DNA from: Eledone cirrhosa
Taxonomy: Eukaryota
Direction: 5' to 3'
DNA: 64,000 bases
Assembly: GCA_964016885.1 (NCBI GenBank)
Contig: OZ024741.1
Location: 343,418,001 to 343,482,000, forward strand
Numbering within the stretch: position 1 is the first letter of the stretch; every line of letters begins with the position of its first letter. The position numbers and the translations under genes are program-made. The notes under the pieces were generated by a model, which saw nothing but the letters and a program-made list of their open reading frames with translations, was not told where the DNA came from and made no database searches. Below, piece by piece: positions 3,852 to 54,605 of the stretch.

Positions 3852-4028
3852 CAGTATCAGTAGAGGATCGGACGCCATGCTTTCCAGCATAGTTACGTCC
3901 CTTTACAATCTGAGTTCAAATCCCGCCGAGGTTGACTTTGCCTTTCATCCTTACGGGGTGGATAAAATAAAGTACCAGTAATACACTGGGTAATTGCTGG
4001 CCTTGTGCCTAAAGTAGAAACAATTATT
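3852..4028 (+). mobile_element. 5'-truncated tRNA-derived SINE fused directly to Tx1 A
   Basis: B-box GAGTTCAAATCCC, core GCCTTTCATCCTTACGGGG..GATAAAATAAAGTACC and tail CCTTGTGCCTAAAGTAGAAACAATTATT running straight into Tx1 ORF2 codons LNARG. Confidence 0.85.
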
Positions 4029-7000: not shown

Positions 7001-7704
7001 GTAGGGACCCCGCCAAAAAGATCTGTCCCAGATGCGTGTGCGACGAGGAAACCGTTGCACACGCATTGGTACACTGCTCGGGCGTAGCCGATCTGTGGGG
7101 CTATGTCGAACAACTGCTGTCAAGGGTGGGACCGATCCGGTTGACCACCGAGTCTATTGTAATGATCAAGCCGCCTCCCCCCTTCAAAGATGAAGCAGAG
7201 GCGGTGTTTCTGTGCGTAATAGCCATGGCGAAAGAGGTTGTGTGGTGGACGCGTCTGAAAGGACTGAGGTCAGGCACCTTTCTCTCTGGCCAACAACTGG
7301 TCCGTTTCTTCCGATATCATTTCGGAAGAAGGATCAGGATGGAGAGAGAGGTGCTGCACCCCAGCCGTTTCTATGAAAGATGGGTGAAAGTGGCGAGAAT
7401 GGCCCGTGTGAATGGGCCTTCACTCTACATCAGACTATAGGTGAGGAAGATGAAAGACCAAGGGAGCACCCCTTCTCTGTGCTCCTGAGGAGAAGGGTTG
7501 CACACTTTTTTCGGGGGTGTGTGCGACCCCCCAAGGCGCCTCCTCTCTATTGAGGATTTTGTTAAAAATTTTATTTTTTGTTATATCTTATTTTATTTTT
7601 ATATTTTGTTATTGCCTCCTCCTTATTGAGGACGCCTTTTTGTGTAAACTCCCCCCTTTGTACTTGTCCCACTTTTGATGCCCTAGTGGCAAATAAAAGA
7701 AACA
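4027..7704 (+). mobile_element. Tx1/L1-clade non-LTR retrotransposon A, 5'-truncated at the ORF2 start, followed by (TATC)n
   Basis: ORF2 homology from 4027, 3'UTR with AATAAA near 7692, then (TATC)n at 7705-7756; no ORF1. Confidence 0.92.
4171..7440 (+). CDS. LINE ORF2: APE endonuclease + reverse transcriptase + C-terminal CCHC (Tx1-like); true start region interrupted by TGA at 4138
   Basis: GDWNG, SYLDR, SDHK (APE); KSPGLDG, NFRPITLLN, DQSKAFD, RQGCPLS, YADD (RT); CPRC..EETVAHALVHC. The in-frame upstream segment LNARGLG...SNV* starts at 4027. Confidence 0.9.
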   Translation: MHASLCQPGGGGGVVVLLQKHLGLATQMVHLDPEGRLVVLDLGSGKGGAFRLVAAYGPFGSMRPDFFHRLETFLGTSRSLLLVGDWNGILDARWDYVGACPDREGCNSLKGLIGRFDLADRYRLDFPTAPTWTWANRSGSSRSYLDRFLVRIKDKDFLSCPKMRMVGYSDHKLVTCMVNLDRTHRQGPGYWKLNLSLPASRAYRNRISTLVKERLTGAIVNSRWWVSLKREIRVVSIEFSKVLAADRNRKERELIDRVEEAIRSGDVARVLASRTALSQFFDAKHEGCVVRSKIRALGNEGTKAVSWARVTEANSGTKSTIRSLRDLDGRAILEPKQMCEAFQRHFARLFGRGGEPVGNVDFGPYLDGLPRLSDREAKSCEEPISAAEIEDVLSQCGKRKSPGLDGLPYELYLAMPDLFPDLLEVVYCNWQQNGRIPCTVTKGVVTLVRKDENKGDEISNFRPITLLNTELQILAKVLAKRLALVVGNLVGDAQTCAIPSRSIHDNLHLMRYIIERVGNEPGFGGALINLDQSKAFDRVDHGYLDAVLAATGFGPVFRGWITVMHSSRICSRVKVNGYLSEPFKIARSIRQGCPLSSLLYVLTLEPLLRKLELLQGIPLEPGLRKAVSAYADDVTVMVSTASEIEAVGTLLEEYEKFTGAKLNRDKSIGLQLGTWRGRPMPSDGVVGRWTEGPVKLLGVWFGPDLQVEKNWAEVTNRVFALTQKWASCKLSLKGRAEVANTYIASVIYYRLTVVPCPRETLTKMERALFQFLWKRRAPMVRRSICCQHPSKGGLGMPWLMMRKHALRLRHLYVFLTGQPVWASFVRRTFPRLVSLTELQSWVKQRPRKLGAWHTECAQALTALWQADPVSSGDSTATFYRGLVRSRCDDALGEALDMEEDELASLFGRTFSPGPMDNFQKSLAWQCYRGALPVRERLYRHGRPGRDPAKKICPRCVCDEETVAHALVHCSGVADLWGYVEQLLSRVGPIRLTTESIVMIKPPPPFKDEAEAVFLCVIAMAKEVVWWTRLKGLRSGTFLSGQQLVRFFRYHFGRRIRMEREVLHPSRFYERWVKVARMARVNGPSLYIRL

Positions 7705-7756: not shown

Positions 7757-7990
7757 AAAATCTAGCTGTCGTCTGTTCTACAGTGTGGATGTCATTCACT
7801 TCGCACAGAAGTTTTGTTCAAATTTATTGAGGAAATTTTGTGAGTTCAAACTTAATTTTGATACAATTGTGTAGCTTGACCCTCCGTCTGAACTGTCAGG
7901 CGGTGGGTCAGCTCATCTTTACCCCTCCTAGAGGTGAAAAACCTGTTTTAAAAAAAATTTTGTGTAAAAAATTTCAATCGTCTAACAGAA

Positions 7991-9870
7991 ATGTTAAACG
8001 CAGCGAACGAAAATAGTGGTGGGGGGACAGCGGTAAGAGTTGTAAGCTCGCACGCTTTAGTCCCCCCTTCCTTCCCAACTAACGTCATAGAGAAGGAAGG
8101 AAAAATGAAAATAAAAACGGACGAATCTGCGGAGAAAAAATTAAATGACGAAAACAACGAAAAAAAAAAAAATTTGAAAAATTGCATGACAATACTAATA
8201 ACACAAACAAAGACACAACAAACAAAAAAATAACAGTTGAAAATAACATCATATCAGAAAACAAAGCAGACGACAGGATTTCATTTGCACAGAAAACAAA
8301 GAAATCTTTGACTTATATAGCGGAAAACATTTCAGATGTGGTACGAAGGATCACGGACGCAAAACAATACATAAGTGAAGGTGAGAATGGTATTTTATTG
8401 GTAAAAATGCCTCAAGAATTCACGAAAGACATTGAAAGCCGAACGGTCAAGTTTCGGACCATCAACAACAGTACAAAAAAACCTGAACAGCCTTCTCAAG
8501 CAGATATCAAAACAGTACTCGCAGAAGTACTGAATGAAACAACTTTCATAAGAAAAGACAGACTGTATGGAAGCCTAGCAATTATCATGAAGAACGAATC
8601 GGCGGCAAAAAAATGTGCTTTGTCACCGATTCGTTCGAAAAATTTCACCTTTTATCCATCTTATATGGGAAAAAAAACTCAACGCATATGGCTGGATGCA
8701 ATGATGCCAGATGTGGACTACTGCTGGCTCATAGCTGGCTTCATCGATCCAGTGAATGACAACGTGATTTCCATTGGGAAAACCACAGGCAATGCGTTCA
8801 GTGGAACAGGTATAAAGCTGGTAGTACAAATGAAGCCTGAACGCATCGCCCAAATACCCGACAGAATCCTATTAGAGGACCACGGGTATATAAACATTAG
8901 CGTGGAGGGGAGAAGGCCGTCCTGCCATATCTGTGCAGGCAGAGGGCACCTGAAGGCCGCTTGTCCCCAACTCAACAAAAAGAAAACCCTGCTACCAACA
9001 CCAGCTCCACCACCACCACCACAACAGATAAACAAACAACAAAACTCAGTCCCACCCAACCCGTCCCTCAGTAACACCACAACACCACCACAACACAAAC
9101 AGTCACAACACATTACCCCAAAACAAAATACAGGCCCACCCAACATCTCACTCAATAAAACAACACAACCACCGCAGACACAACACACAACACAGTCTAA
9201 CATAGTGACATCCATCTCCCCCACAAAGAAAACCAACACGGAAACATTACCAGCAAACATACCTCTTCCCTCCAACACTGAAGATAACCCAACGAATTCG
9301 GAGGAAGAAACGGAGTCCTTCAGACAGGTTAAAAGGAAAAAAAGAAAACATGTGCAAAACACACAAGGACAAACAACCCCCACCCAAATCGCAACACAAT
9401 CTAACAAAACAGAAAACACCCCTCCAGCAACAAACAAAACCAAACCTGCCCCTCCCCTCTTCGAAACACTCACACCATCGGAAAAAAAGACATTACACTA
9501 TACTTACATCAACAGAAACAATAATAAATTAAATGAACTCATATACAATAATCCTTCGGTACAAACCGAAGGTGTAAACTTTGTTTCATCAGAAAACCAC
9601 CCACATTTAAAACTAATAAAAATCCCAATGAACCTCTACCAAAAACTAAAAAAGGATTTTAAGGAGGACGTAGGACCACCCTCTGTCAAACCCATAAACC
9701 GCGTCCTACTAAAAAGCTTTCCCCCTCCCCTTCCCCTCCCCAACACAACTCCAAACACCCCAACCCCACCACACACCGACGACCCCACACCACCACAAGA
9801 CACCCCTTCACCCAACACCCCCGACCCCATGGAAGTCGTGCAACCCGAACCCCGGGAAGCGGAAAGGTAG
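7991..9870 (+). CDS. Tx1 B ORF1 (gag-like, CCHC zinc knuckle); one apparent frameshift in the A-run at ~8159-8172
   Basis: ORFs 7991-8233 and 8182-9870 overlap across a homopolymer; VEGRRPSCHICAGRGHLKAAC knuckle and a P/T/Q-rich linker. Confidence 0.8.
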
Positions 9871-9903
9871 GTCTCTACACTCTCCTTTGGCTCTGCCGCC
9901 CAC

Positions 9904-12900
9904 ATGGATGTGTTAAGAGTAGGATGTTTGAATGCACGTGGCCTGGGCTCAACTTGGAAGCAAGCAAAGCTTCTAAATGACCTCAGGTCATGTAGTATAA
10001 ATGTAATGGTTATCTGTGAGACTCGAATCAGCGTCATGCGGCAGCTGGCCCCCACCTTCGATGACTTTGAGGTGCATGCATCTCTCTGTCAACCTGGAGG
10101 TGGGGGTGGGGTTGTCGTGCTGCTGCAAAAACACCTGGGTCTTGCCGTACAGGTTGTGCACTCGGACCCGGAGGGTCGTTTGTTGGTGCTAGACGTTGGC
10201 AGTAGTGAAAGTGCGGCCTTGAGACTGGTCGCCGTCTACTCCCCTTTCGGAGCTGAACGGCCCGACTTCTTCCAGCGTTTGGAGACTTTTCTGGGAACGT
10301 CGCGTTCCCTGCTTCTAGCGGGGGATTGGAATGACATCCTAGATGCACGTTGGGACTATGCAGGAGCATGTCCTAATAGAGGGGGGTGTAACAGCCTCAA
10401 GGGGTTACTCGACCGTTTTAACTTGGTCGATAGATATCGACTAGATTTTCCAACTGTGCCTACCTGGACTTGGAGAAACCACAGTGGTCAATCTAGATCG
10501 TACTTAGATAGATTCTTAGTTAGAAGTAAGGATAGGGACATATTAAGCTGTCCAGAAATGCGCACGGTTGGCTACACGGATCACAAATTAGTGACCTGCG
10601 TGGTCAATCTCGAGAAAACACATAGACAGGGTCCCGGTTACTGGAAACTTAATTTGTCTTTACCGGCAAAAGAGACTTACAGAAACCGGATTAGCAGATT
10701 AGTTAAGGAGAGGTTGACGGGTGCAATCGTCAACAACCGATGGTGGGCATCTCTCAAAAGAGAGATTAGAACAGAATCAATAAGTTATAGCAAGATGTTA
10801 GCTGCCAATAGGAATAGAAACGAGAAAGAATTAACAGGTAAATTAGAAGAGGCAATCAAGAGCGAAGATGTGGCCAGAGTGCTGGCATCGAGGACGGCCT
10901 TGAACCAGTTTTTCGATGCAAAGCATGAAGGCTGCGTCATTCGAAGTAAAATACGTGCTCTAGGTAATGAGGGGGCCAAAGCCGTTGGATGGGCCCGCGT
11001 GACAGAAGTTAAAAGTGGAAATCGATCCACCATCCGATCGTTGCAAGACGAAGATGGACGAGTGATCCGGGAGCCTAAGCAGATGTGCGAGGCCTTTCAA
11101 AAGCACTTTGCCCGATTGTTCGGGGGAGGCGAGGGTCCGGGCCGGGGCGTGGATTTCGGTCCATACCTCGACGGCCTGCCGCGTCTCTCGAGCAAAGAGG
11201 CAGAGTCCTGCGAGGGACCAATCTCGGCTGATGAGATCGGAGATGCGCTGAGCCAATGCAGCAGACGCAAATCTCCAGGTCTCGATGGTATACCTTACGA
11301 ACTTTATTTAGCAATGCCGGTCTTCTTCTCCGAACTCCTCGAAGCGGTCTACTGCAATTGGCAGCAGAACGGGAGAATTCCTTGTTCTGTAGCCAAGGGC
11401 GTAGTCACGCTGGTGAGGAAGGACGAGAAAAAGGGGGATAGTATAAATAATTTTCGGCCCATAACCCTGCTAAACACAGAGTTAAAGATTTTGGCCAAGG
11501 TGTTAGCAAAGAGGTTGGCGCTTGTCGTGGGTGGCCTGGTGGGAGATGCGCAGACATGTGCTATCCCATCCAGGTCCATTCACGATAACCTCCACCTCAT
11601 GCGATACATCATAGAGAGGGTTGGCAACAAACCCGGCTTCGGTGGGGCCCTGATCAACTTGGATCAGTCTAAGGCCTTCGATAGGGTCGACCATGGTTAC
11701 CTGGATGCGGTGCTAGCGGCGGCTGGGTTCGGTCCTGTTTTCAGAGGCTGGATCACTGCCCTACATAGCAACCACATCTGTTCTAGGATCAAGGTGAACG
11801 GCTACCTTTCGAAGCCGTTCGAAATCACACGATCCATTCGACAGGGGTGCCCTCTCTCCTCCCTTCTGTACGTATTGACTCTCGAGCCTTTACTGAGGAA
11901 GTTGGAGTTGTTGCAGGGTATCCCCCTGGAACCAGGATTGAGCAAAGCGGTGTCGGCCTACGCCGATGACGTAACAGTAATGGTATCAACCGACTCGGAG
12001 ATCGAGGCGATCGGTACCTTACTGGAAGAGTACGAAAGGTTGTCAGGAGCGAAACTGAACCGGGAAAAATCCATCGGGCTGCAACTCGGAACGTGGAGAG
12101 GCAAACCGATGCCTCCTGACGGTGTCGTCGGACACTGGACGGAGGGCCCGGTAAAGTTGCTTGGGGTCTTGTTTGGACCGGACCTCCAGGTGGAAAAGAA
12201 CTGGAACGAGGTTACGAACAAGGTGTTTGCACTAACCCAGAAATGGGCCAAGTGTAAGCTGTCCCTAAAAGGCCGGGCGGAGGTGGCGAACATTTACATA
12301 GCGTCCGTCACTTACTACCGCCTGACTGTCGTGCCTTGCCCTAAGGAAACACTCACCACCATGGAACGCATGCTCTTCCAATTTCTTTGGAAGAAGCGTC
12401 CTCCTATGGTGAGAAGATCCATCTGCTGCCAACAACCTTCGAAAGGAGGGCTGGGGATGCCGTGGTTGATGATGCGTAGGCACGCATTAAGGCTACGGCA
12501 CCTACAGGTATTCCTCACTGGTCAACCGGTGTGGGCTCCGTTCGTGAAACGAGCCTTTCCGAGACTCGTCTCACTCACCGAGCTACAGTCCTGGGTCAAG
12601 CAAAGATCCGGAAAACTGGGAGACTGGCACACTGAGTGTGCTCAGGCGCTCAGGGCTCTCTGGCAAGCGGGCCGGACCATCGGTGGAGAATCCACCTCAT
12701 CATTCTATAGAGGGCTGGTGGCTAGCAGGGGCGATGACACCCTTGGAGAGTCGCTGGACATGGAAGAAGACGAACTGGCCAGCCTGTTCGGTAGGACTTT
12801 CGGCCCAGGACCAATGGACAACTTCCAGAAGTCACTGGCCTGGCAGTGCTACCGAGGGGCTCTACCCGTTCGAGAGAGGCTCTACAGACACGGGCGCCCG

Positions 12901-13341
12901 GGCAGGGATCCCTCAAAAAAGATTTGCCCTAGATGCGTGCGTCACGAAGAAACCGTAGCGCACGCATTGGTGCAATGTCCGGGCGTGGCTGATCTGTGGG
13001 GCTACGCCGAACAACTGCTGTCGCGGGTGGCGCCGATTAAATTGACCGCCGAGTCCGTGATGACAATCAAACCGCCTCCCCTCTTCACAAAGGAAGCAAA
13101 GGCGGTTTTTCTGTGCGTAATAGCCATGTTGAAAGAGGTTGTTTGGTGGACACGATTGAAAGGTCTGAGGTCAGGCAACTTCCTCACTGGCCATAGTCTG
13201 GTCTACTTCTTCCGATATCACTTCGGAAGAAGGATAAGAATGGAGAGAGAGGTGCTTGGCCACAGGCAGTTTTATGAAAGGTGGGTGATAGTGGCGAGAA
13301 TGGCTCGTGTAAATGGGCCTTCTCTGTATACCATCCTGTAG
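9904..13341 (+). CDS. Tx1 B ORF2, intact 1145 aa APE-RT-CCHC polyprotein
   Basis: LNARG, CET, GDWN, YLDR, TDH (APE); RT motifs including YADD; C-terminal CPRC...HALVQC. Confidence 0.95.
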   Translation: MDVLRVGCLNARGLGSTWKQAKLLNDLRSCSINVMVICETRISVMRQLAPTFDDFEVHASLCQPGGGGGVVVLLQKHLGLAVQVVHSDPEGRLLVLDVGSSESAALRLVAVYSPFGAERPDFFQRLETFLGTSRSLLLAGDWNDILDARWDYAGACPNRGGCNSLKGLLDRFNLVDRYRLDFPTVPTWTWRNHSGQSRSYLDRFLVRSKDRDILSCPEMRTVGYTDHKLVTCVVNLEKTHRQGPGYWKLNLSLPAKETYRNRISRLVKERLTGAIVNNRWWASLKREIRTESISYSKMLAANRNRNEKELTGKLEEAIKSEDVARVLASRTALNQFFDAKHEGCVIRSKIRALGNEGAKAVGWARVTEVKSGNRSTIRSLQDEDGRVIREPKQMCEAFQKHFARLFGGGEGPGRGVDFGPYLDGLPRLSSKEAESCEGPISADEIGDALSQCSRRKSPGLDGIPYELYLAMPVFFSELLEAVYCNWQQNGRIPCSVAKGVVTLVRKDEKKGDSINNFRPITLLNTELKILAKVLAKRLALVVGGLVGDAQTCAIPSRSIHDNLHLMRYIIERVGNKPGFGGALINLDQSKAFDRVDHGYLDAVLAAAGFGPVFRGWITALHSNHICSRIKVNGYLSKPFEITRSIRQGCPLSSLLYVLTLEPLLRKLELLQGIPLEPGLSKAVSAYADDVTVMVSTDSEIEAIGTLLEEYERLSGAKLNREKSIGLQLGTWRGKPMPPDGVVGHWTEGPVKLLGVLFGPDLQVEKNWNEVTNKVFALTQKWAKCKLSLKGRAEVANIYIASVTYYRLTVVPCPKETLTTMERMLFQFLWKKRPPMVRRSICCQQPSKGGLGMPWLMMRRHALRLRHLQVFLTGQPVWAPFVKRAFPRLVSLTELQSWVKQRSGKLGDWHTECAQALRALWQAGRTIGGESTSSFYRGLVASRGDDTLGESLDMEEDELASLFGRTFGPGPMDNFQKSLAWQCYRGALPVRERLYRHGRPGRDPSKKICPRCVRHEETVAHALVQCPGVADLWGYAEQLLSRVAPIKLTAESVMTIKPPPLFTKEAKAVFLCVIAMLKEVVWWTRLKGLRSGNFLTGHSLVYFFRYHFGRRIRMEREVLGHRQFYERWVIVARMARVNGPSLYTIL

Positions 13342-13555
13342 GTAAAGAAGTAAAGGAGAGGGGAGCACCTTCTCCATGTGCTCCCCGGGCAAAGGATTGC
13401 ACACTTTTTCGGGGGTGTGTGCAACCCCCATCACGTCCCCTCCCTTTTGAGGTTATTTTCGATTATTTTCATGTTACACCCTTTTTACTCGATTATATGT
13501 AAACTCCCCCTTTGTATTTGTCCCTTCTTTTTATGCCTTTATGGTAAATAAAGAA

Positions 13556-13598
<43 letters not shown>

Positions 13599-28182: not shown

Positions 28183-28215
28183 AATAATAATAATAATAAT
28201 ATTATTTGTTTCTAC

Positions 28216-33360: not shown

Positions 33361-33361
<1 letters not shown>

Positions 33362-33604
33362 TTTTCTTTATTAACCACAAGGGTTTACATAAAGTAGACA
33401 TTAAGGACAGTACAGGACAATACAGGACGGTACAAATGGGCATTTCTGCGTGTAAAAAAAACAGAGGATGAAATAAAATAACAAAGAAAAATTCCCCAAT
33501 AGGGGGGAGACTTCCGAGGGACATTTGTGAAGAAAGCCCATTAAAAGACCACAGTGGCCCTGACCACCAGGGCAAGTGCCCTCTCCCAGTTTTCCACCTT
33601 TAAT

Positions 33605-36600
33605 TTACAGACACATACTCAGAGAAGGCCCATTCATTCGGGCCATACTTGCTTCTCTCACCCATCTTTCAACAAAATGCTGGGAAGAGAGCACTTCCCT
33701 CTCTACCCTGATTTTCCTTTTCAGATGAAATTGGAAAAAGTTAATCAGGGCATCACCGAAGAGGTAAGTGCTCGTCTTCAGCCCTTTCAAACGTGTCCAC
33801 CATACTATCTCTTTCGCCATGGCCACCAGACAAATAAAAACTGCCTGCCCTTCCCGGCTAAAGGAAGAGGGCGGGGCAATCCTCACGATGGACTCAGCTG
33901 ATAGCTGGATCCGTCCTACACGTGACAGCAGGTGTTCGACATAAACCCACAAGTCAGCAAAGCTCGGACACTGGACGAGTGCGTGCAGGACGGTTTCGTC
34001 GCCCTGTGCCAATCTCGGACATGCCCGGCTGACGGCACCTCCATACCTGTAAAGTTTATCCCGAACTGGCAAAGCACCCCGGTAGCACTGCCAGGCCAGG
34101 GATTTCTGGAAGTTGTCCATAGGTCCCGGCCCGAAAGTCCTTCCGAAGAGATTGGCTAGTTGATTTTCGTCGACGCCTAGAGTTTCTCCAAGTACGTCGT
34201 CGCTCTTCCCCTCCACTAATCCCCTATAGAACGCCAAGGTGGAGTTTCCACCGATCACATTGCCCGATTGGTCGAGGGCTGTGAGCGCCTGAAGACATTC
34301 CAGTCTCCAAGCGCTCCCTCTCGGTCTTCGCTTGACCCAGGACTGCAGCCCCGTCAAGGAGACGAGCTGAGGAAAAACGCGTCTAGCAAACGGCGACCAC
34401 ACCTGATCACCGTCGAGGAAGAGGTGGAGATGTCGTAGCCTGAGCGCGTGTCTGCGCATCATCAGTCACGGCATGCCCAGCCCTCCACGTAGCGGGTGTT
34501 GACAGCAGATGGACCGCCTGACCATCGGAGCGCGTCCCTTCCACAAGAAGCGAAAGAGCAAACGCTCCAGCGCAGTCAGGCGGGGCTTAGGACAAGGTAC
34601 GACGGTCAGGCGGTAGTAGATGACGGATGCGATGTACGCATTCGCCACCTCCGCTCGATCTTTCAGGGATAGCTTCCTCTCGGCCCATTTCTGGGTGAGA
34701 GAAGCCACCCTGCTCGTCACCTCGTCCCAGTTTTTGTCCGTCTGGAGGTCTGGACCGAACCAGACACCTAGCAATTTAACCGGTCTGTCCGACCAGCGCC
34801 CGACGACGCTGTTGGACGGCATGGACCTGCCTCTCCAGGTGCCGAGCTGCAGGCCCACTGACTTTTCCTGGTTGATCATTGCTCCTGTCACCGCTTCGTA
34901 TTCTCTTAGTGTAGTGCCGATCGCCTCGATGTGTTTGGCGTCCGACACCACTACGGTGACATCGTCGGCATATGCTGACACGGATCTTCCGCATCCTAGT
35001 TCGCGCGGGACCCCCCTCAACGTCTCCAGTTTGTGCAGTAATGGCTCGAGAGTCAATACGTACAATAGGGACGAGAGGGTACATCCTTGGCGGACCGAGC
35101 GCATGATGTTGAACGGTTCCGAAAGGTGACCATTCACTCTCACTACAGAGCAGATGTCGCTGTGCATGGCAGCGATCCAGCCTCTGAAGACGGGCCCAAA
35201 GCCAGCCGCCCTCAGGACTGCCGCTAGGTAACGATGGTCGACCCTATCGAAGGCTTTCGTCTGATCTAAATTGATCAAAGACCCACCCGTGCCAGGTTCC
35301 CTAGCTACCCTCTCTACGATGTATCGCATGAGGTGGAGGTTGTCGTGGATGGATCTGTCGGGAATGGCGCATGTCTGTGCCTCTCCCACCAGACTACCAA
35401 CGACAACCGCCAACCTCTTTGCTAGCACCTTGGCCAAAATCTTGAACTCTGTGTTTAGCAGAGTTATGGGCCTAAAATTATCTATGTTATCCCCCTTGTT
35501 CGGATCTTTTCTCAGCAGCGCCACCGCTCCTCGGCTCACAGAGCTGGGAATTCTCCCGTTCTGTTGCCAGTTGCAGTAGACGTCCGCCAAGAGTCCTCCG
35601 AACAAGTTTGGCATTTGTACGTAAAGTTCATAGGGCAGACCATCCAAACCAGGCGATTTACCCCTTGTGCAACCAATCATTGCATCCCGTACTTCAGCGG
35701 TTGTTATCGGCTTTTCGCAACACTCCGCCTCAGTGGCCGAAAGCCGCGGCAGTCCGTCGAGGTAGACACTAAAGTCCATCCCTCGATCCTCCCGCCACTG
35801 CCCCCGAACAGTTGAGCGAAGTGTCGCTGAAAAGCTTCACACATTTGCCCAGGATCGAGTAGCATGCGCCCGTCGTGGTCCACCAAAGACCGGATCCTGG
35901 CTTTGTTGCCACGACGCGCCTCCGCCACTCGGGCCCATTGAACGGCTTTCGTCCCCTCGTGTCTGAGAGCACGCACCCTAGCTCTGACAACGCAGCCTTC
36001 GTGCTTTGCATTGAAGAATTGGTCAAGGGCCAATTTTGCCGCAAGTAATTCGGTCGCGATGCCTTTGCTAAGCGCCTCATCTAATTTTCTAACTAATTCT
36101 CCCTCTGCTCTATTTTTCTCTATTGCTAAAGTCTTACTAAACCTAATGGACTCTATTCTAATTGCTCTTTTCAGAGCAAACCACCACTTGTTGTTGACGA
36201 TGGCCCCCGTCAACGCCCGCTTAATTAGTTAGCTAATCCGGTCTCTGTAGGCCTTGCGCGCTGGTAAGGACGCGTTTAGCTTCCAGTAGCCGGGTCCTCG
36301 TCTATGAAGCCTATCTAAGTCAAGCACACAGATCACGAATTTGTGGTCCGTGTAGCTGACTATCTTGAATTGTGGACAGCCTATGCTAGACCTATCTATT
36401 TCCCTACAAAATACTCTATCTAGATATGATCTGGATGACCCTATGCGATTTGTCCAAGTCCACATTGGTACATTCGGGAAATCCATTCGGTACCTGTCAG
36501 ACAGTTCAAAACGTCTGAGCAGGTTGGTGAGACTCTTGCACCCTCCTTCCCTATCCACTAATCCGACACAATCCCAGCGTGCATCTAAGATCCCGTTCCA

Positions 36601-37021
36601 GTCGCCCACTAACACTAAAAAGCGGGACGTTCCAAGAAAGGTCTCCAGACGCCGGAAGAAATCAGGCCGCCCTGCTCCTGTCGGGGCATAGACGGCCACT
36701 AACCTGAAAGCTTGCCCGTCTCCGCTGGTCACGTCCAGCACCACCAACTTACCTTCTGGGTCCAGGAAGATGGCCCGTATGGCGAGATCCAAACCTCTCC
36801 GAAAAAGCACAACTCCTCCCCCCCGATCCCGGACGGCTGGGAGATGCGTACACATCGTAGCCGCCGAAGATCGGTGCGAAAGCCTGTGCTTCGGAGATTC
36901 TGGTCTCGCTGATGGCCACTACATCTATGTTTAGTGACCTGAGGTCGTTGAGCAGGTGGCCCTGCTTCCATGACGACCCCAAGCCACGCGCATTTATGCT
37001 GCCTATTCTGAGTGAGGTCAT
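33605..37021 (-). pseudogene. Tx1 D ORF2 (APE-RT), broken by a few frameshifts/stops
   Basis: Consecutive ORFs 36749-37021, 36229-36855, 35704-36213, 34466-35779 and 33605-34462 are colinear with B ORF2. Confidence 0.9.
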
Positions 37022-37055
37022 GTTAAAAAGGAGTGGAAAAGATGGGAAAGACCAC

Positions 37056-39031
37056 TTACCTTACTTCTCGTAGGGGAAGGACGGTTTTTCCATCCTTTTC
37101 ACTGCTTGTGGCCTCCTCAGGAAGGATGTCCTTATAAATCCTCCTGGAGATTGCTTGTCGGAAGTCTCCGATGTCTTTGGGGAATTTTTGTTTTAGTGTC
37201 ATGTACGTTTTCTGTGTGATGCGAGTGATTTGTATGTGTGGAGGTGGTGTGAATTTTGGGGTTGTTGTGTAGTCTTTTTCTGTGATGCTGGTGTTGTGTT
37301 GGATGTAGTGTAATAATTGCTTGTTGTTCAAATTTAATGCTGTGTAGTGTGTATCGTTTTGGTTGTTTTGTTTTGTTTGCGTTTGTTGTGGGTTTGTTTC
37401 TGTTTTGCATTTTGGTGACTTTTGTGGTGTAGGTGATGGTGGTGTTGGGGTTAATGATGGTGATGGTGTTGGTGTTTGGGTTGATGGGGTTGGTGGCATA
37501 TCTGTCCTAACTTTTTTGTTTCTTAATTTATTTGTTTCCCTCTGTATTTTGTTTTTGGAGGGGGAAGGAAGAGAATTTTTTCTTTTTTGGTTTCTTTTTT
37601 TTTCCGGATATTGTTTCCCACTCCTCGTCGTCACAATCTGTTTCCAGTTGTGATAGGCCGGGGAGTGGAAAATCCTCCACAGCCGTTAGTTTTGGTTGTG
37701 GCGTGGTGGATGGTGTAGGCGCTCGTGCTAGTTCTGAAGCGTTGGGTGGTGGTGGTGTTGGTTTTGCTGGTGGTGGTGGTGGTGTTGGTTTTGCTACTGT
37801 TGCTGGGGTTGTTGCTGTTATAGTTGCTTCTGTTGTTGCTGCTACAGTTGTTGCTGCCATCTCTGCTACTGGTGGTGTTGATGGTTGTGTCACTGGGGTG
37901 GGTAGGAGAGGTGGCCTCAACCTTTTAGCCTGAGGGCAGAAAGCCCTTAGGTGGGTTCCTTCACCACAAACGACACACCTAGGTCTTCTGCCCTCGACAA
38001 TTACCGTGAGGTGGCTGCCGTCAGTGAGGTCTATTACCTCTGGGATCTCCTCAATGCTTTTTTGGTCCGCTTGGATCAGGAGCTCCATCCCAGATCCGGA
38101 CCAGTTCTCCTGCTTTTCTTTTGATATTGCTATTATTTTCGTGTTGGCTTCGATGCCGGCGAGGACGGCCGCTATTAGCCAGGGAATTTCGATGGCCGGT
38201 GGAACGTGGGTCACCCTGATCTTTACGAGTCTCTGGCCACAATAGCTTGGGACGAGTGTGAAGTCGTCACTTTTTAATGGGGCCATGGAGTGTTCTCTAG
38301 CCTCCTCTGGTGTTTCAAAGAACACGTCCACGGTTCCATACTTTTGCCCACGTCTGATGTGGGTTTTTCTTGCCCACACATGTCCCAAAGCTTTTTGGAT
38401 TTGGGACTCGGATGCCCGTTCCACTCGGCGCGATTTTACATTTATTGTTCTATACGACACGGTGCATAGGCGCCGATGCTCCATTTTATTAGGTGGAGGG
38501 GGTGAGGCTGACCCTGTACCCATCTTTCTTTACCATTTGTTTGGCATTTTCTAAATCCTCCTGAGTTACCGTAAATGCTTCGAACTGTTTTGCTATTCTG
38601 GCGAAACTGAGGGTCGGTTTTATAATGTTGTTGTTGTTGTTGTTGCTATCGTTATTTGTGTTAATATTAATTTTAGTTTCAGTTGTGGTGGTGGTGACGT
38701 CAGTCGTCTTTGGTGGGGAAGAGTCCATTTTGCTTGATTTCATTTCGACATCACGAGTTAATTTACTTTTTTCTTCTTTTGTTTCTGTTGTCGCGGTGGT
38801 GGTGGTGGTGGTGGTTGTCGCGGTGGTGGTGGTGGTGGAGGCTTTAACACCTGCAGTCATTGGTAATGGCGGGAAATGAATGTCTGCCTGAGACAAATTT
38901 AAAATATTGCTAGTGCTTATATTTTTTTTTGTGTTAGCAAACGTAGTAACATTTACAATGGTGGTGTCGGTGTGAGGTGTTAATTTGTGAGGAAGGCTTT
39001 CAGCTGCTTCGTACAGTGGTGAATTAGCCAT
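37056..39031 (-). pseudogene. Tx1 D ORF1 with CCHC knuckle, two frameshifts
   Basis: VEGRRPRCVVCGEGTHLRAFC; VPSYCGQ is homologous to YPSYMGK in B ORF1. Confidence 0.8.
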
Positions 39032-39262
39032 CTTTTTCAAAGAAATTTCTTGATAATAATAAAAGGTTAAATTTGGGGCACAAGGCCCCAATCTTTTTGG
39101 GTGTCCTTTTCGGAAAACAATGTATGTGCGATTATAAACAGTTAACAATAAAATTTTCCATAAATGACAATTTTTAACAAACGGAAATAACAAACCTTTG
39201 CGGAGCTCACGATGATACGATTTACTACGTAGGTCGCCAATAATAATAATAATAATAATAAT

Positions 39263-39569
39263 GTTTTCTTTATTAACCACAAGGGTTTACATAAAGTAGA
39301 CATTAAGGACAGTACAGGACAATACAGGACGGTACAAATGGGCATTTCTGCGTGTAAAAAAAACAGAGGATGAAATAAAATAAAGAAAAATTCCCCAATA
39401 GGGGGGAGACTTCCGAGGGACATTTGTGGAGAAAGCCCATTAAAAGACCACAGTGGCCCTGACCACCAGGGCAAGTGCCCTCTCCCAGTTTTCCACCTTT
39501 AATTTACAGACACCTACTCAGAGAAGGCCCATTCATTCGGGCTATACTTGCTTCTCTCACCCATCTTTC
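39263..39569 (-). mobile_element. 5'-truncated Tx1 copy E (3' ~310 bp) between AAT runs
   Basis: Near-identical to 33361-33670; AAT repeats at 39239-39262 and 39570-39582. Confidence 0.9.
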
Positions 39570-39596
39570 AATAATAATAATAAAAAAAAAAAAAAA

Positions 39597-39953
39597 TAGT
39601 GCCTGATTGTGGATGTGGCCTACCCATTCATCACGAGAGTGCAAGAGAAGGAGAGGGAGAAAATTAACCGATACCAGGACTTAAAGTGGGAGGTAAAAAG
39701 GATTTGGAACTGCCATGAAGTCAAAGTGATCCCGATTGTCATAGGCGCACTGGGGACTATCTCAAAAAGTTTCCAGGGCTGGTTAAAGAAAAGTGGCCCC
39801 TTCACGCTTTTTGGAACGCTTCAAAAGGCATGCTTGCTGGGAACATCAAGAACCCTCCGATACGTCCTGAATATCTGAGGCTGCAGGTAGTGGCTTGATA
39901 TTCATTTCAACAAACTTTCCAGTTCACTAACATCAATGACTGAGACTCAAAGA
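39597..39953 (+). mobile_element. R4/Dong 3' fragment G
   Basis: DVAYPF..KEREKINRYQDLKWEVKRIW..IGALG..LRYVLNI*, same 3'UTR as F, (AAT)n tail. Confidence 0.85.
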
Positions 39954-39978
39954 GTAATAACAATAATAATAATAATAA

Positions 39979-40331
39979 TTGTTTCTACTTTTGGCACAAG
40001 GCCAGCAATTACCCAGTGTATTACTGGTACTTTATTTTATCGACCCCGTAAGGATGAGAAGCAAAGTTAACCTTGGCGGGATTTGAACTCAGAATAGCAA
40101 GGGCCGTAACTCTATGCGTCAAAGCATGGCGTCCAATAGTAATAGTTTCTACTTTTTTGGCGCAGGGCCAGCAATTACCCAGTGCATTGCTGGTGCTTTG
40201 TTTTATCGACCCCGTATAATATAACAATAATAATTGTTTCTACTATTGGCACAAGGCCAGCAAATACCCAGTACATTACTGGTACTTTATTTTATCGACC
40301 CCGTAAGGATGAAAGGAAAAGTTAACTTCGG
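39979..40331 (-). mobile_element. Three 5'-truncated SINE copies in tandem, separated by AAT-like spacers
   Basis: Each begins on + with GTTTCTAC..GGCACAAGGCCAGCAA (or a close variant) at ~39980, ~40145 and ~40235. Confidence 0.8.
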
Positions 40332-40344: not shown

Positions 40345-42734
40345 AGCAACAAGTCGAAACAAATTTCAAAAGTTTTGAACGCAACAATCCCTACTTCCCA
40401 CGTAGGTAAAATCAAATCAGCAAAGCAGCAACAACACTAGTAACCGATGCTACTGGCCTTGAAAAACAAATAAGGTAAAGGAAAAAAAACTAAAACAAAC
40501 AAAAAAAAACTAAGTCAGACATTCAAACATAACAATGAAATTTATGTTTATTTTTTAAAGTTTTTATCTATTTATTTGTTTATTTATTTATGTTCGTCTA
40601 CAGCGTGATGATGCCATGCTAAAATCACCGAGGGTGATCAGATCACTGGGGGTGATGAAATCACCGGTGGTTATGTAACCATACATACAACAATCCTCGA
40701 TATGAGTGTTTAAATGTCGAACCTACACAGTTCGAATAACGGTGAAGAGGAGACTAGAACGTTATGTGACAGACTCTCACCCAGCAGGTGCTCCCTGGTC
40801 CAGTAGCAGGGACATGGCTGTCATCCAAATACTGCTGGTGTTGGAGGAAGAAGAAGAAGGAAAGGGACCAGAACCAACTGGACGAAAGAATTGAATAGAA
40901 CTGTTATGCAATGTTACCTGAAAAGTAACCCCAAAGGCTATAGGAAACGGATGCATAACATCTGGAACGAGATTGGTCTATTTAAATTAGATGAACAAAA
41001 AGTGGCCGGGTAGGCTCGGATAATAAGAACTAATGGATGGATAAGCGAGCTGGAACTGGAGGAACTGATCAGAGAGATTAGGTTGGAAATGGAGAGTGGA
41101 GTATGCCAGGCAAACGAGCCTGAAGAAAATGAAGGTGAAGAGGTTGAGAGAACGGAGGAACCATCCGAAGCAGACAATGATCTGAATGCTGAAATAAATA
41201 ATAGCTGGAACAAAGATACGGCCGTTGAGGAAATGAATGCTGACGGGCTAGGACAAGATTTGGTTGATATCCTAAACTTAGTGGTAGATGAAATGAACAA
41301 TGATAGTGGGAAACCTATGAACCTAAGAATTGTAGAGAGGAATAAGTTAAAAGAAACAACAGCTAAAGTAAACAAAGTCATCCCATACCATGAGGCGAGG
41401 AACCTTCACCAATGCAACAATATCCTCAAAGCAACAGCAAATGCGGTGAGGAAATTACTTGGCATAAAAACGAGAGGAAACAACAAACAAGAAAGATCAG
41501 AACCTTGGTGGCAGAAACGACTGAATGGTCAAATCAGGGAAATGAGAAATGACATTGGAAAGCTTGAGTCCCTACTGAATGGGACACTAAAAAACATAGA
41601 CACTAAAAATAGACTGGAAATAAAGTACAAAACTAGGAGGAAAAAGCTAAATATTATCATAGAGGAACTGAAGCAACGCATTGTAGCAAAGAGTGCAAAG
41701 ATTAGGCGATATGAGAGCAGAGTCAGTCAGTATAGAGAGAAGCGCATGTTGGACAACAACCAGAAGATGTTGTTTGGACAGCTTGAAGGGAAGGAAAGAG
41801 GCAACGTCTTGATCCCTGAGGCGGAACAGACTAAAACATTCTGAAGAGGAATATGGGAGAAGGATGTTGAACATAATGATAAGGTAGTGTGGATTGAGAC
41901 AGTACAACAAGAGATAAGTGGACAAGCATATCAACAAACTGATTTAAGTATCACAGTTGAAACTCTTAAAGGGCAGGCCAAAAAACTAACCAACTGGAAA
42001 TCACCAGGCCCAGATGGTGTGCAGGGGTATTGGATTAAAAATATAACATCCCTCCACCCGAAATTGACAACCATGTTCAATGACTGCTTGAGGTCAGGTG
42101 AGGTACCAGAGTGGTTGACAAAAGGTACCACAGTTTTGCTAATGAAAGACCGAATCAAGGGTAATGATGTTACCAACTATAGACCTATCACATGTCTGTC
42201 CGTAATGTGGAAACTGTTAACAAGCATTGTGTCTGAGGAAATCCACCATCACCTCCACATAAACAACTTGTTACGGACGAACATAAAGGATGCCGAAAGA
42301 AGTCCCGTGGTACAAAGGACCAGTTACTTATTGATAAGATACAAACGGACAAGAAACTGGAACACAATAGTCCTGACCTGGTGGTTTGGGACAAGGAAAA
42401 AGATTGTGCCTGATTGTGGATGTAGCCTGCCCATCCGACACAAGAGTGCAAGAGAAGGAGAGGGAGAAAATTAACCGAGGATTTGGAACTGCCATGAAGT
42501 CAAAGTGGTCCCGATTGTTATAGGCGCACTAGGTACTATCTCGAAGAGTTTCCAAGGATGGTTAAAGAAAATTGGTCCCACCCCGCTTTTTGGAACACTT
42601 CAAAAGGCATGCTTGCTGGGAACAGCAAGAACCCTCCGATACGTCCTGAATAACTGAGGCTGCAGGTAGTGGCTTGATATTCATTTCAACAAACTTTCCA
42701 GTTAACTAACATCAATGACTGAAACTCAAAGAAC
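40345..42734 (+). mobile_element. R4/Dong element H with probable 5' end; large internal deletion near 42335
   Basis: N-terminal NWTKELNRTVMQCY..GYRKRMHNIW, WKSPGPDG and NYRPITCLSVMWKLLT joined to RLE-region QTDKKLEHN; (AAT)n tail. The 5' boundary is uncertain. Confidence 0.8.
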
Positions 42735-42757
42735 AGTAATAATAATAATAATATTAA

Positions 42758-42996
42758 TTGTTTCTACGTTAGGCACAAGGCCAGCAAATACCCAGTGCAT
42801 TACTGGTACTTTATTTTATCGACCCCGTAAGGATGAAAGGCAAAGTTAACCTTAATAATAATAATAATACATACATACATATATAATTATGTATATACGC
42901 ATATACATATATATACATACCGTTCACTCCTAACACATATATACAGACCCACACACATACACACACGCACACACATATATATATATATACATGTAC

Positions 42997-43035: not shown

Positions 43036-44610
43036 AATACATACATACAAACATGCATACATATGCGGTATATAGTTACATCCCTTTACGTTAGGAGTTG
43101 AAATCCCGCAGAAGTTAGCCTTCATCTTCACGGAGCAGATAAAATAATGCACCAGTAACGTACTCCAGTCGATTTAATCAATATGTCCCTCTCGCCAAAT
43201 TGCTGGTCTTGTACCTAAATCAGAAACCCTTATTACTTAAATGGACAACATCACGGAGTCATTTATTACACGAATGGGAAATCTTGTTAAGCACTATATA
43301 TACATTAGAAGGGTTACATGCAGAATCCAGTTATATTATCTTCGGTTTTAGCCATTCCAGCGAAGGCCACGCTGGAGTGTTTACTTTGGATGGTATGGTA
43401 TGGTTCCGTAACTCCTGTTAGAGTCGTAGGGGCGCCATATTGACATACTCTGTTTCCTGGGCATTTTAAACCCGGCGAAGCCCATCCCTCTCCAGGCCTG
43501 AGTACAGCAGATTTCTTCCAGAGAAAGAGAGAGGGGGAGGAAATGATAAAGAGATATAGAGGAAGAATCGATCCCAGTACTAGACTGGTACTTATTTTTA
43601 TCGACCCCGAAAGGATGAAAGGTAAAGTTGACCTCGACGGGATTTGAACTTACAGTGCAGAGAGCCGGAAGGAATACCATAAAGCTTTCTACCCGACGTT
43701 CTAACGACTTTCGATATAATGTATCAATTAAATTTGCGAACTTCAAAGATAATAAAATATATGAACACAGTAAAAACGTGCACTCTGATAATAAAACAAT
43801 ATAACAGACATATTGTAGCTTGGTTGTCAAATAATTGTTTCTACTTTTGGCACAAGGTCAGCAATTATCCCAGTACATTACTGGTACTTTATTTTATCGA
43901 CCCCATAAGGATGAAAGGCAAAGTTAACCTCGGCGGGATTTGAACTGAGAATGACAAGGGCCGTAACTCTATGCGTCAAAGCATGGCGTCCGACCCTCTA
44001 CCGATACTGCCAATCCACCCAAATGATGGTTTCTGATTTAGGCACAAGACCAACAATTCTGGGGGAGGGGAATGTCGACTAAATCGACACCAGAGCATTA
44101 CTGTTACTTTATTTTATCGACCCCTGTAAGGATGAAAAGCAAAGCTAACCTCGGCTGGTTTGGAACTCAGATCGTAAAGGGCCGTAACTGTATGCCGCAA
44201 AGCATGTTTTCCTACGCGCCACCGATACTGACAATCCACCGCCCTTGGTTGTCAAATATTAAAAATATAAATGGATGATTAACATCAAATCCTAAGCCGG
44301 GAAAACGCGGTGAATTGGCAGAGTCATGAGAACGACGGATAGAATGATTTGTGGTATTCTTTCTGGCCCTGTGTTCTGAGTTTAATTCCCGCCAAGGTCT
44401 ACTTCGCATGTCATCCTTTCGAGGCCGAAAAAAAAGTACTAGGGTAGTTTCTTCCATCATATCTCTTTCTCGCGTCTTCTCAATGACTCTATCTCTCTCT
44501 TTCTCTGGAAGAAATCTGCTCTGTTTAGACCTGGAGAGGAGATGGGGTACGCCAGCCTTAAAATACCAAAGATTAACCCTGTGTCAATATGGCGCCTTTA
44601 CGACGCCATG
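42758..44610. mobile_element. SINE cluster (about six copies, both strands, two tail types)
   Basis: SINE core motif at ~42758-42853(-), 43070-43232(+), 43410-43710(-), 43834-44020(-), 44025-44245(-) and 44305-44610(+). Confidence 0.75.
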
Positions 44611-51147: not shown

Positions 51148-51251
51148 TAATTGTTTCTACTTTTGGTACAAGGCCAGCAATACCCAGTGCATTACTGGTA
51201 CTTTATTTTATCGACCCCGTAAGGATGAAAGGCAAAGTCAACCTCGGCGGG
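51148..51251 (-). mobile_element. 5'-truncated SINE
   Basis: Same tail and core as the other copies, with short AAT flanks. Confidence 0.8.
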
Positions 51252-51476
51252 ATAATACTTTGAAACCGGTAATAATTTATATACTTTATATACATTATAA
51301 AACCTTTTTAAAAAGAATTGTCCCTCTCATTTTTTCAATAATGTCACTTTGACGAATCAAAGAAAGGATAAAAAGAGAAAAAACAGACCGTTGAATATAT
51401 TTTCCGTGCTATTTCCAACATCACCTTTTCTCTATATCCACTGTTTTCTATAGAACCTTCCCTTTTCTAATACACA

Positions 51477-53231: not shown

Positions 53232-54605
53232 TACACACACATATATATATATATAAAGAAAAAAAAAAAAAATACACACAGTCAGACAATTATGCACACA
53301 TATATATATATATATACATACACACATCTCTACAAATATATATACACATACACACGCACACATACATATATACATACACACATATATATACATAGACATA
53401 TATATACACACATATATATACATATATATACATACATATACATACATATATATATATACATATATATATATATACACAATCATACACACTTATTTACATG
53501 CGCACATATGTATTTTTATACTCACATACAAACACCCAAACATACATACCTACTTACATACACATACATACATCCACGCTTACAAATACAAATAATTATA
53601 GGGGGGGAAGGGGATTAACATTATTAGTGGGAAATAGTAAATATAGGTTTCAAGGAACATAGAATATTAATCTGCATTTAGATCATAATATGTGTTTACA
53701 TAGTAGTTTCAGTATTAGGAAATGTAAGAAAGAAGGCAAAATTATGCATTTTAATATAAGTAGACTATTAATTATAGGTTAACTAAATTAAAAATAGTTA
53801 ATATATTGATTTCTAAGGTGTATACTACTTAGGTTTATAATATTTGAAGCGGAATTTTGAAGTTAAACAGTAGTAGAGTATTAATTATAGCATAACTAAA
53901 TTAAAAATATTAACATTATGGCATCAATATTAGGAAATGAATTTAGTAATAGGGAAAACCAAATCAAGTATTTCATCGGTAGTAGAATATAAATTATAGG
54001 TTAACTAAATTAAAAATTATATATTAATTTCTATAGTATATGTTAATTAGGTTTATAATAATTAAAGCAGATTTTGTATTTTATCTATAGTAGAATATAA
54101 TTATAGGTTAACAAAAATTAAAATTAATATATATATATATATTTAATTGTAAAGAATATATTAATTAGGTATATATTTAAAAATTTATCTCAGTTTATGA
54201 TTACATGATATTCTGCAATCTATCTGTATTAGAATTTTAATTTTAAGTTAATTAAATTAAAATTATAGGTTAACTAAATTAAAATTAATTTATAAATAAA
54301 TTTCTAAATTGTACATTAATTAGGTTTATAATATTAAAAAATATCTCTCTGTTATTGATTACACGATATTTTGTTATATTTCATCTGTAAAGGAATTTTA
54401 ATAAAAGGTTAAATAAACTAAAATTAATCTATAAATTAATTTACAAAGTATATATTAATTATGTTAATAATATTTAAAAGTTTTTTCACAATTTATGATT
54501 ACACAATATTTTTTAATCTCATCTGTAGTAGAATTTAATTAAATTAAATTTATAGGTTAACTACATTTAAATTAAATTATATATTAATTTCTAAAATATA
54601 TATTA

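What the first reader, a model, noticed from the sequence alone, without database searches (positions are those of the whole stretch)
39979..40331. SINE apparently partnered with the Tx1 LINEs (shared 3' end, target and orientation)
Seen: the SINE 3' end CCTTGTG-CCAAAAGTAGAAACA-ATTATT aligns without gaps to the Tx1 D/E end CCTTGTG-GTTAATAAAGAAAAC-ATTATT (15 nt between anchors in both) and to Tx1 A CCTAGTG-GCAAATAAAAGAAAC. 5'-truncated SINE copies at 39979-40331, 42758-42853 and 51148-51251 have AAT repeats on both sides and the same polarity as C/D/E. Known: SINEs commonly share 3' ends with the LINE that mobilises them; L1-clade partners usually rely on poly(A) instead. Inference: a stringent-type Tx1-SINE pair that inherits microsatellite specificity, and whose (ATT)n tails seed new targets.
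Basis: partly seen in the sequence, partly recalled or inferred. Interest (0 to 1): 0.75.

Follow-up and report, generated by a model that had tools for sequence, protein, structure and literature searches.

The report
SINE borrows a Tx1 tail hairpin
A very abundant short jumping repeat (SINE) ends in the same small predicted RNA hairpin, at the same distance from its end, as a group of L1/Tx1-type long elements and leaves the same ATTAT-starting duplication, so it likely borrows their copying enzyme, but unlike them it mostly lands outside long ATT microsatellites.

Summary
The better evidence is structural. Tx1-type families end in a predicted 4-bp stem with a CUUGU-type loop 16 nt from the end, with compensatory changes. 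The SINE keeps loop and spacing and swaps one pair. The longer SINE form matches the ATT-type family F3 best (z 6.3-6.9). No CR1, RTE, Dong or Ingi end examined came close. SINE target duplications start ATTAT and peak at 16-18 nt; 5 of 27 F3 copies show this, 0 of 23 CR1 copies. Ages match F3, not D. Two inferences fail. Only 9.3% of 145,066 SINE ends sit on (ATT)4, against 60% for F3, 77% for D and 4.7% background. The SINE adds no long tail. TATC-targeting A and B are unlikely to be the main partner. Verdict: probable Tx1-mobilised, tail-sharing SINE, a new variant of a known kind. The scan reported this pairing before, at other places in this genome and in another genome.

The parts
39980..40134 (-). 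5'-truncated short-form SINE, copy 1; 3' hairpin TGGC-CTTGT-GCCA plus 12-nt spacer at 39980-40004
40144..40216 (-). 5'-truncated SINE, copy 2 (head-to-tail, more diverged)
40235..40331 (-). 5'-truncated SINE, copy 3; hairpin at 40235-40259
39955..39979 (+). (AAT)n tail of the Dong fragment; read as (ATT)n on the minus strand it is the SINE target
39589..39954 (+). 3' fragment of a Dong/R4-type LINE, tail-to-tail with the SINE array (clade name recalled from its protein motifs)
40590..42736 (+). Internally deleted Dong/R4-type LINE ending in (AAT)n (5' boundary approximate)
42759..42853 (-). 5'-truncated SINE in the Dong tail, ATT arrays on both sides
43836..44020 (-). Near full-length short-form SINE with A-box- and B-box-like head (box consensus recalled)
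44028..44240 (-). Long-form SINE directly upstream of the 43836 copy, same hairpin at 44028-44052
51152..51253 (-). 5'-truncated SINE at a short ATTAT(T) site, no array
3852..4022 (+). SINE between a (TATC)n array and the 5'-truncated Tx1 A, no target duplication; possible template-switch chimera
4027..7703 (+). Tx1-type LINE A (5'-truncated; APE, RT, zf-RVT), TATC target; hairpin TGCC-CTAGT-GGCA at 7679-7691
7757..13558 (+). Tx1-type LINE B with open ORF1 (573 aa) and ORF2 (1156 aa), TATC target; hairpin TGCC-TTTAT-GGTA
28207..28215 (-). Last 9 nt of the SINE fused directly to the 3' end of Tx1 C; the only direct fusion of this kind found in the genome
28216..33309 (-). Tx1-type LINE C (broken), ATT type
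33361..39238 (-). Tx1-type LINE D, ATT type, young family; hairpin AACC-CTTGT-GGTT within 33361-33385
39263..39574 (-). 5'-truncated Tx1-type copy E between ATT arrays

Best explanation
This SINE ends in a Tx1-like 3' module (a predicted short stem with a CUUGU loop, 16 nt from the end) and inserts at ATTAT with 10-19 nt duplications, so it is likely copied in trans by the ORF2 protein of an ATT-type Tx1 lineage that would recognise that hairpin. Shown: the shared module, compensatory stem changes, the footprint, polarity and overlapping ages with family F3. Inferred: Pol III transcription from the head; ORF2p binds the loop and stem; its endonuclease nicks at ATTAT; target-primed reverse transcription starts at the fixed 3' end; second-strand cleavage about 16-18 nt away gives the duplication. 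Each insertion doubles an ATTAT site, which gives head-to-tail arrays such as 39980-40331. The SINE uses the ATTAT core but not the long-array preference. Either its short RNA tail needs less pairing with the target, or the driver was an older, less selective subfamily (both inferred).
For: Hairpin: 90% of 100 cells paired, covariation 0.60, 0 of 500 shuffles as high, slid controls at most 0.12 (16 Tx1 and 9 SINE ends). RNAalifold predicts the inner three pairs unprompted. The loop is CTTGT at 51-55 of 55 random SINE ends per position. Loop-to-end distance is 16 nt in 11 of 12 window hits. Long SINE tail vs F3: scores 42-45, z 6.3-6.9, 0 of 1500 background, 0 of 300 shuffles (a third F3 copy: 39, z 5.7, 3 of 1500). 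CR1, two RTE and two Dong ends give z below 1. Other CR1-like and Ingi ends score at most 30. Of 272 non-Tx1 C-terminal hits, the 17 scoring 33 or more are SINE copies or not at a LINE end. Footprint: duplications of 10 nt or more in 37 of 97 random SINEs (shuffled pairing mean 4.5, max 11), and 80 of 97 3' flanks start RTTAT. The same ATTAT-start 15-19 nt duplication is in 5 of 27 F3 copies and 0 of 23 CR1 copies that also end in ATT. Of 29 Dong tails outside the window, 4 carry a SINE and 6 a Tx1, all in the same polarity (by eye). Identity to consensus: SINE subfamilies 93.0-95.5%, F3 94.6%. Loop-specific, stem-tolerant recognition is shown for L2 LINEs (PMC4176376).
Against: The target spectra differ: (ATT)4 follows 13,469 of 145,066 SINE ends (9.3%), 1,077 of 1,784 F3 ends (60%) and 3,806 of 4,940 D ends (77%). 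No Tx1 family with the SINE's own stem was found (3 hits; the 2 read are SINEs), so a direct donor is missing. The match is only about 30-40 nt. In the short SINE at 39980 the single-sequence minimum-energy fold does not contain the hairpin, and most single folds are no better than shuffles. One search's shuffle control ignores relatedness, and I chose the rows. 46 of 97 SINEs and about 15 of 27 F3 copies show no duplication. F3 and D age samples are best hits, so biased. Not every LINE family was examined; two I/R1-like copies were broken before their 3' ends. No experiment.
Confidence: 0.78

Rival explanations
1. The tail came from Tx1 long ago, but recent amplification was driven by the ATT-tailed CR1 family, which would recognise only the AUU end.
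For: A very abundant, young CR1 ends in (ATT)n on the sense strand. SINEs sit next to CR1 ends in some loci (3 CR1 junctions against 12 Tx1, from unequal samples).
Against: CR1 end scores z 0.3-0.8 against the SINE tail. 0 of 23 two-ended CR1 copies show a non-repetitive duplication of 11 nt or more; two seen are longer and do not start at ATTAT. This CR1 is about 99% identical, younger than the SINE.
Confidence: 0.05
2. An RTE or other unsampled LINE mobilises the SINE, and the ATTAT start comes from pairing of the SINE's own AUU end with the target, not from a Tx1 endonuclease.
For: RTE-related SINEs have duplications whose first base follows their 3' repeat (PMC6007223 abstract). The SINE's weak preference for arrays fits priming by short microhomology. 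RTE families are present.
Against: The RTE ends seen carry CTGAGT or GAT repeats and do not match. No thymine stretch about 10 nt upstream of the duplication in 38 copies; only position -8 is T-rich, partly from tandem SINEs. This rival does not explain the conserved loop, spacing and compensatory pair.
Confidence: 0.08
3. A Tx1 enzyme copies the SINE, but the hairpin is a leftover or a 3'-end-formation signal (it precedes AATAAA in Tx1) and not the element the reverse transcriptase recognises.
For: In Tx1 the hairpin is followed by AATAAA. The stem is only 3-4 bp and is not the best fold of the short SINE.
Against: The SINE lost AATAAA but kept the loop, the stem (through a two-sided change) and the 16-nt spacing, even in the short form that deleted about 30 nt just upstream.
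Confidence: 0.2
4. The TA-targeting CR1-like family (L305 group), whose end also reads TGGCC...GAAACC, is the partner.
For: Its 3' end scores 26 against the long SINE tail, above the background mean of 9.8.
Against: All 30 copies end in an ATCAAAGTT-type repeat and nearly all sit in (TA)n. The SINE has neither. The loop differs and the score is far below F3.
Confidence: 0.03
5. Chance resemblance of two AT-rich ends that both collect at ATT sites.
Against: Long SINE vs F3: 0 of 1500 and 0 of 300; covariation; identical spacing; same footprint.
Confidence: 0.03

Closest known systems
Stringent L1-clade pairs: maize LINE1-1_ZM with ZmSINE2/3; Chlamydomonas L1-1_CR with SINEX-3_CR (PMC3472496 passages; PMC3747384 passages and section 21 part 1 of 2)
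   Same: L1-clade LINE and tRNA-type SINE share a 3' end with a stem-loop: variable, compensating stem and conserved loop.
   Different: Those are plant and algal elements with poly(A) or poly(T) ends. This is an animal, target-preferring Tx1-type lineage with no poly(A), a 4-bp stem and CUUGU loop, and an ATTAT target. The 2012-13 survey lists only three L1-tailed SINEs and none for Tx1.
SINEU with Tx1-Mar in crocodilians (PMC4494074 passages)
   Same: A SINE assigned to Tx1 machinery from shared target preference and concurrent age; tandem insertions around a duplication.
   Different: SINEU has snRNA heads and poly(A) tails, and the passages read report no shared 3' sequence for SINEU-1. 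Here the link is a shared tail structure, and the SINE is far more abundant (at least 145,066 exact ends).
Stringent L2 pairs, ZfL2-1/ZfL2-2 and UnaL2 (PMC4176376 passages)
   Same: Works like them by inference: a 3' stem-loop whose loop is constant while the stem varies.
   Different: L2 clade, experimentally tested. Here it is L1 clade and untested. The 'TX1' in that paper is a construct name, not the Tx1 clade.
Microsatellite-specific Tx1 families Kibi, Koshi and crocodilian (TTCC)n/(TTTC)n families (as described in PMC4494074)
   Same: APE-type L1-clade elements in tandem arrays within microsatellites.
   Different: Targets here are (ATT)n and (TATC)n. No tree with named references was built.
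Octopus SINEs OK, OR1, OR2 (Ohshima and Okada 1994; seen only as citations) and bivalve SINE-LINE pairs (PMC11481361 passages)
   Same: Abundant tRNA-type mollusc SINEs; bivalve tail homologies span 35-61 bp at 72-95%, like the match here.
   Different: Identity with OR1, OR2 or OK could not be tested. The bivalve partners named are CR1, CR1-Zenon, L2 and Nimb, not Tx1.

Membership tests
SINE (tRNA-type) | Short, non-coding, high-copy interspersed repeat | tested here: met
   About 190 nt; 100 short-form copies with intact 3' end in 790 kb; 145,066 exact ends
SINE (tRNA-type) | tRNA-derived head with A and B boxes | tested here: inconclusive
   Box-like motifs by eye (consensus recalled). ARAGORN found no tRNA in 4 loci, and Rfam gave no tRNA match
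SINE (tRNA-type) | Retrotransposition footprint: fixed 3' end, 5' truncation, target duplication | tested here: met
   33 of 97 truncated; 37 of 97 with duplications of 10 nt or more
SINE (tRNA-type) | Pol III transcription | not tested
   No RNA data examined
L1 clade LINE | ORF1 plus ORF2 with APE endonuclease, RT and C-terminal zinc motif, closest to L1 | tested here: met
   Pfam Exo_endo_phos, RVT_1 and zf-RVT (zf below the curated cut-off for A and B). Best solved structure human L1 ORF2p E 2e-51, R2 2e-20
Tx1 group | Target-sequence preference | tested here: met
   77% of D ends and 60% of F3 ends on (ATT)4; A and B types in (TATC)n
Tx1 group | Placement with named Tx1 elements on an RT tree | not testable with these tools
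Stringent SINE-LINE pair | Shared 3'-terminal sequence | tested here: met
   z 6.3-6.9 for long SINE vs two F3 copies, 5.7 for a third; weak for short SINE vs D
Stringent SINE-LINE pair | Conserved 3' stem-loop with compensatory changes | tested here: met
   caveat from single-sequence folding
Stringent SINE-LINE pair | Same insertion footprint and overlapping age | tested here: inconclusive
   Duplication start, length and age fit F3; use of long arrays differs about six-fold
Stringent SINE-LINE pair | The stem-loop is required for mobilisation by the LINE protein | not testable with these tools
   Needs a retrotransposition or binding assay
Microsatellite-specific element | Most copies lie inside repeat arrays | tested here: not met
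   SINE: 9.3% on (ATT)4, background 4.7%; 8 of 97 random copies with 3 or more units
CORE / Meta / Deu-Nin SINE superfamilies | Conserved central domain | tested here: inconclusive
   By eye, no clear match to the bivalve Meta, V or CORE consensus lines in the PMC4824008 supplement (parts 1 and 3 of 4). No octopus consensus was available

The most novel reading that the evidence does not exclude
An animal L1-clade (Tx1) lineage picks its RNA by a CUUGU stem-loop instead of poly(A), and one of the genome's largest SINE families spread by mimicking it. The contrast (SINE 9%, Tx1 60-77% on long ATT arrays) would show that the endonuclease reads only ATTAT, while preference for long microsatellites is set by pairing with the RNA tail.
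Probability: 0.4. Interest if true: 0.75.

Novelty: new variant of a known kind. Interest (0 to 1): 0.55.

Why it matters
L1-clade elements are the textbook relaxed type that binds poly(A). A 2012-13 survey found only three L1-tailed SINEs, all in plants or algae. A tail-sharing pair in an animal Tx1-type lineage would bear on whether stringent recognition is ancestral in the L1 clade. It gives a 25-nt element that can be tested directly, with natural compensatory variants. It would also name the engine for a SINE with hundreds of thousands of copies in a group where SINEs make up about a tenth of the genome (11.6% in O. vulgaris, PMC13282606). The gap between SINE and LINE target spectra lets one separate endonuclease specificity from RNA-DNA priming.

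Tried and rejected
The genome search with Tx1 A's 3' end returned nothing (common words are skipped), so A-family 5' junctions could not be surveyed. SINE-LINE chimeras as general evidence: the direct Tx1-SINE 3' fusion at C is the only direct one in the genome (2 hits, the other with a short spacer; CR1 control 1 hit). Most SINE-Tx1 5' junctions have ATT or a duplicated target between them, so they are sequential insertions. A direct donor with the SINE's stem was not found. Rfam found nothing in the window at gathering thresholds. A U2 snRNA match over the SINE body had E 3.5 and was treated as chance. Dong as partner was rejected: its tail is on the opposite strand and its end scores near background. 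A third random sample was not obtained, so the random set is 79 stretches, 790 kb. Literature searches gave no paper describing a SINE that shares a 3' stem-loop with Tx1. The library lacks most subscription papers and Repbase, and Ohshima and Okada 1994 and 2005 were not read.

Full report
Setting. The window is G000:C2:343418001-343482000 in a 3.0 Gb animal genome. That it is octopod-like is my inference from the recalled look of the SINE and the LINE make-up; it comes from no call. The window holds five L1-clade elements with APE, RT and zf-RVT domains, whose best solved relative is human L1 ORF2p. A and B lie on the plus strand in (TATC)n; C, D and E lie on the minus strand in (ATT)n. It also holds three Dong/R4-type copies (name recalled) ending in (AAT)n, and about ten SINE pieces.

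Observation. The quoted ends are real and the 15-nt spacing holds. The stretch 39979-40331 is three head-to-tail truncated SINEs in a Dong tail. The 42759 copy has ATT arrays on both sides; the 51152 copy does not.

The SINE. In 79 random 10-kb stretches there are 100 short-form copies with an intact 3' end, and the genome has 145,066 exact ends followed by ATTAT. A longer form carries about 30 more bases before the tail: 13 long and 44 short of 57 tails in the first 39 stretches. Of 97 copies with readable flanks, 80 have a 3' flank starting RTTAT. 37 have a duplication of 10 nt or more, mostly 16-18 (shuffled pairing mean 4.5, max 11), and 46 have none. 55 have ATTAT within 30 nt upstream, against 4.8% of random windows; only 8 have three or more ATT units downstream. 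Because ATTAT appears in both copies of the duplication, it is target DNA and not an added tail.

The Tx1 ends. Searches for D, the zf-RVT family and family F3 showed many families with different 3' UTRs but one terminal motif. It reads as a 4-bp stem around a five-base loop, mostly CTTGT, with stems AACC/GGTT in D, GGCC/GGCC in F3, TGCC/GGCA in A and TACC/GGTA in a B relative (110 ends). The SINE has TGGC-CTTGT-GCCW: the same loop, with one C-G pair turned to G-C (55 ends). On an alignment of 16 Tx1 and 9 SINE ends that I chose, 90% of cells pair, 3 of 4 pairs change on both sides, and covariation is 0.60 against 0.24 shuffled (0 of 500) and at most 0.12 when slid. RNAalifold predicts the inner three pairs. 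The loop lies 16 nt from the end in 11 of 12 window hits. Caveats: the shuffle ignores relatedness, and single-sequence folding shows the hairpin in 4 of 4 Tx1 ends and 1 of 2 long SINEs but not in the short copy at 39980.

Which LINE. The long SINE tail scores z 6.3-6.9 against two F3 copies (0 of 1500, 0 of 300), 5.7 against a third F3 copy and against A, 2.8 against D, 2.0 against B, and below 1 against CR1, two RTE and two Dong ends. Further families found through Pfam searches end in other repeats and score at most 30 where no SINE is adjacent; two I/R1-like copies were broken before their ends. Among 272 non-Tx1 C-terminal hits, all 17 scores of 33 or more are neighbouring SINEs or not at a LINE end. 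Of 27 F3 copies with both junctions, 5 show a non-repetitive ATTAT-start duplication of 15-19 nt, about 7 lie in ATT arrays and the rest show none (one of 30 loci had no readable end). Of 23 two-ended copies of the ATT-tailed CR1, none shows such a duplication. Of 29 Dong tails outside the window, 4 carry a SINE and 6 a Tx1, all in the same polarity (by eye). SINE subfamilies are 93.0-95.5% identical to their consensus, F3 94.6% and D about 100% (F3 and D are best-hit samples).

What does not fit. (ATT)4 follows 9.3% of SINE ends, 60% of F3 ends and 77% of D ends, against 4.7% of all ATTAT sites. The SINE is therefore only about two-fold enriched in arrays and is not microsatellite-specific. 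No Tx1 with the SINE's own stem was found. Only 19 SINE ends run into (TATC)3, and 15 of these start with ATTAT. Three lie in pure TATC context with the TATC-type polarity, against 1 in the opposite polarity. So the A and B types mobilise the SINE rarely, if at all. The SINE fused to truncated A (3852-4022, no duplication) may be a template switch, but it is one case.

Mechanism. Shown: shared module, spacing, footprint, polarity and age overlap. Inferred: ORF2p of an ATT-type family binds the loop and stem, as shown for L2 elements (PMC4176376), nicks at ATTAT and primes reverse transcription at the fixed end. Each insertion duplicates ATTAT, which explains tandem arrays (11 of 101 random SINE ends are followed by another SINE within 45 nt). 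Long arrays come from Dong, CR1 and Tx1 itself. I put Tx1 mobilisation at about 0.8 and recognition through the hairpin at about 0.6.

Known context. The Ohshima survey lists 58 pairs, three with L1 tails, all plant or algal (PMC3472496 passages; PMC3747384 passages and table). Crocodilian SINEU was tied to Tx1-Mar by target and age and ends in poly(A) (PMC4494074 passages). Bivalve partners are CR1, CR1-Zenon, L2 and Nimb (PMC11481361 passages). I also saw passages of PMC4824008 (supplement parts 1 and 3 of 4), PMC4758252, PMC3531059, PMC8967140 and PMC5804259, part 1 of 3 of PMC13282606, and the abstract of PMC6007223. Eight searches found no tail-sharing Tx1-SINE pair. Repbase and SINEBase tables were not seen and may hold one.

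Earlier notes. A look-up by sequence found nothing. Look-ups by words and place, made after my analysis, returned 11 AI notes with the same reading, 10 in this genome and 1 in another. They are not independent support. In the few lines shown for each I did not see the genome-wide count that the SINE lacks the array preference of its likely partner.

Verdict. Probable Tx1-mobilised, tail-sharing SINE; a new variant of a known kind; interest 0.55.

Noticed in passing
L302-L308, L318-L347 (e.g. G000:C1:117648708-117648890): A CR1-like LINE family (about 97% identical, 2,239 first-look candidates) ends in 1-3 ATCAAAGTT units and sits almost always in (TA)n: a microsatellite-preferring element outside Tx1 and Dong.
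   Followed up: partly
window 3130-3862 and 7704-13660: An inverted 544-nt copy of Tx1 A's 3' end (98%) faces A across a short palindrome. Its 3' flank matches B's 3' flank, so these copies appear to sit in TATC tracts in the two arms of a host inverted repeat.
   Followed up: partly
window 3852-4030: SINE joined to truncated Tx1 A by ATTA or a 2-nt overlap, TATC upstream, no duplication: possible template switch.
   Followed up: partly
window 28207-28216: Tx1 C runs directly into the last 9 nt of the SINE; the only direct fusion found in the genome.
   Followed up: yes
L071-L099, L236-L264: Dong (AAT)n tails are the main landing site of young Tx1 D copies (18 of 29 by eye), always tail-to-tail.
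   Followed up: partly
L390, L393, L395: Rare SINE ends running into (TATC)n without ATTAT, one in the tail of a TATC-type Tx1; possible occasional cross-mobilisation.
   Followed up: partly
window 53972-56310: Long inverted repeats (about 680 nt, 98%) around a 302-aa ORF (54606-55514) with a GIY-YIG-like motif recalled from Penelope elements; no Pfam hit.
   Followed up: no
L002:1450-1585: Weak Rfam U2 snRNA alignment over the SINE body (12 bits, E 3.5); likely chance.
   Followed up: no
long-form SINE, e.g. L059:650-725: The 30-nt block that the short form lost holds a perfect palindrome and a pyrimidine run; the short form outnumbers the long about 3 to 1.
   Followed up: no
L012, L027, L066: Short repeats carrying only the CR1 3' end (60-80 nt, 77-83%): possibly a second, CR1-partnered SINE or old truncated CR1 copies.
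   Followed up: no
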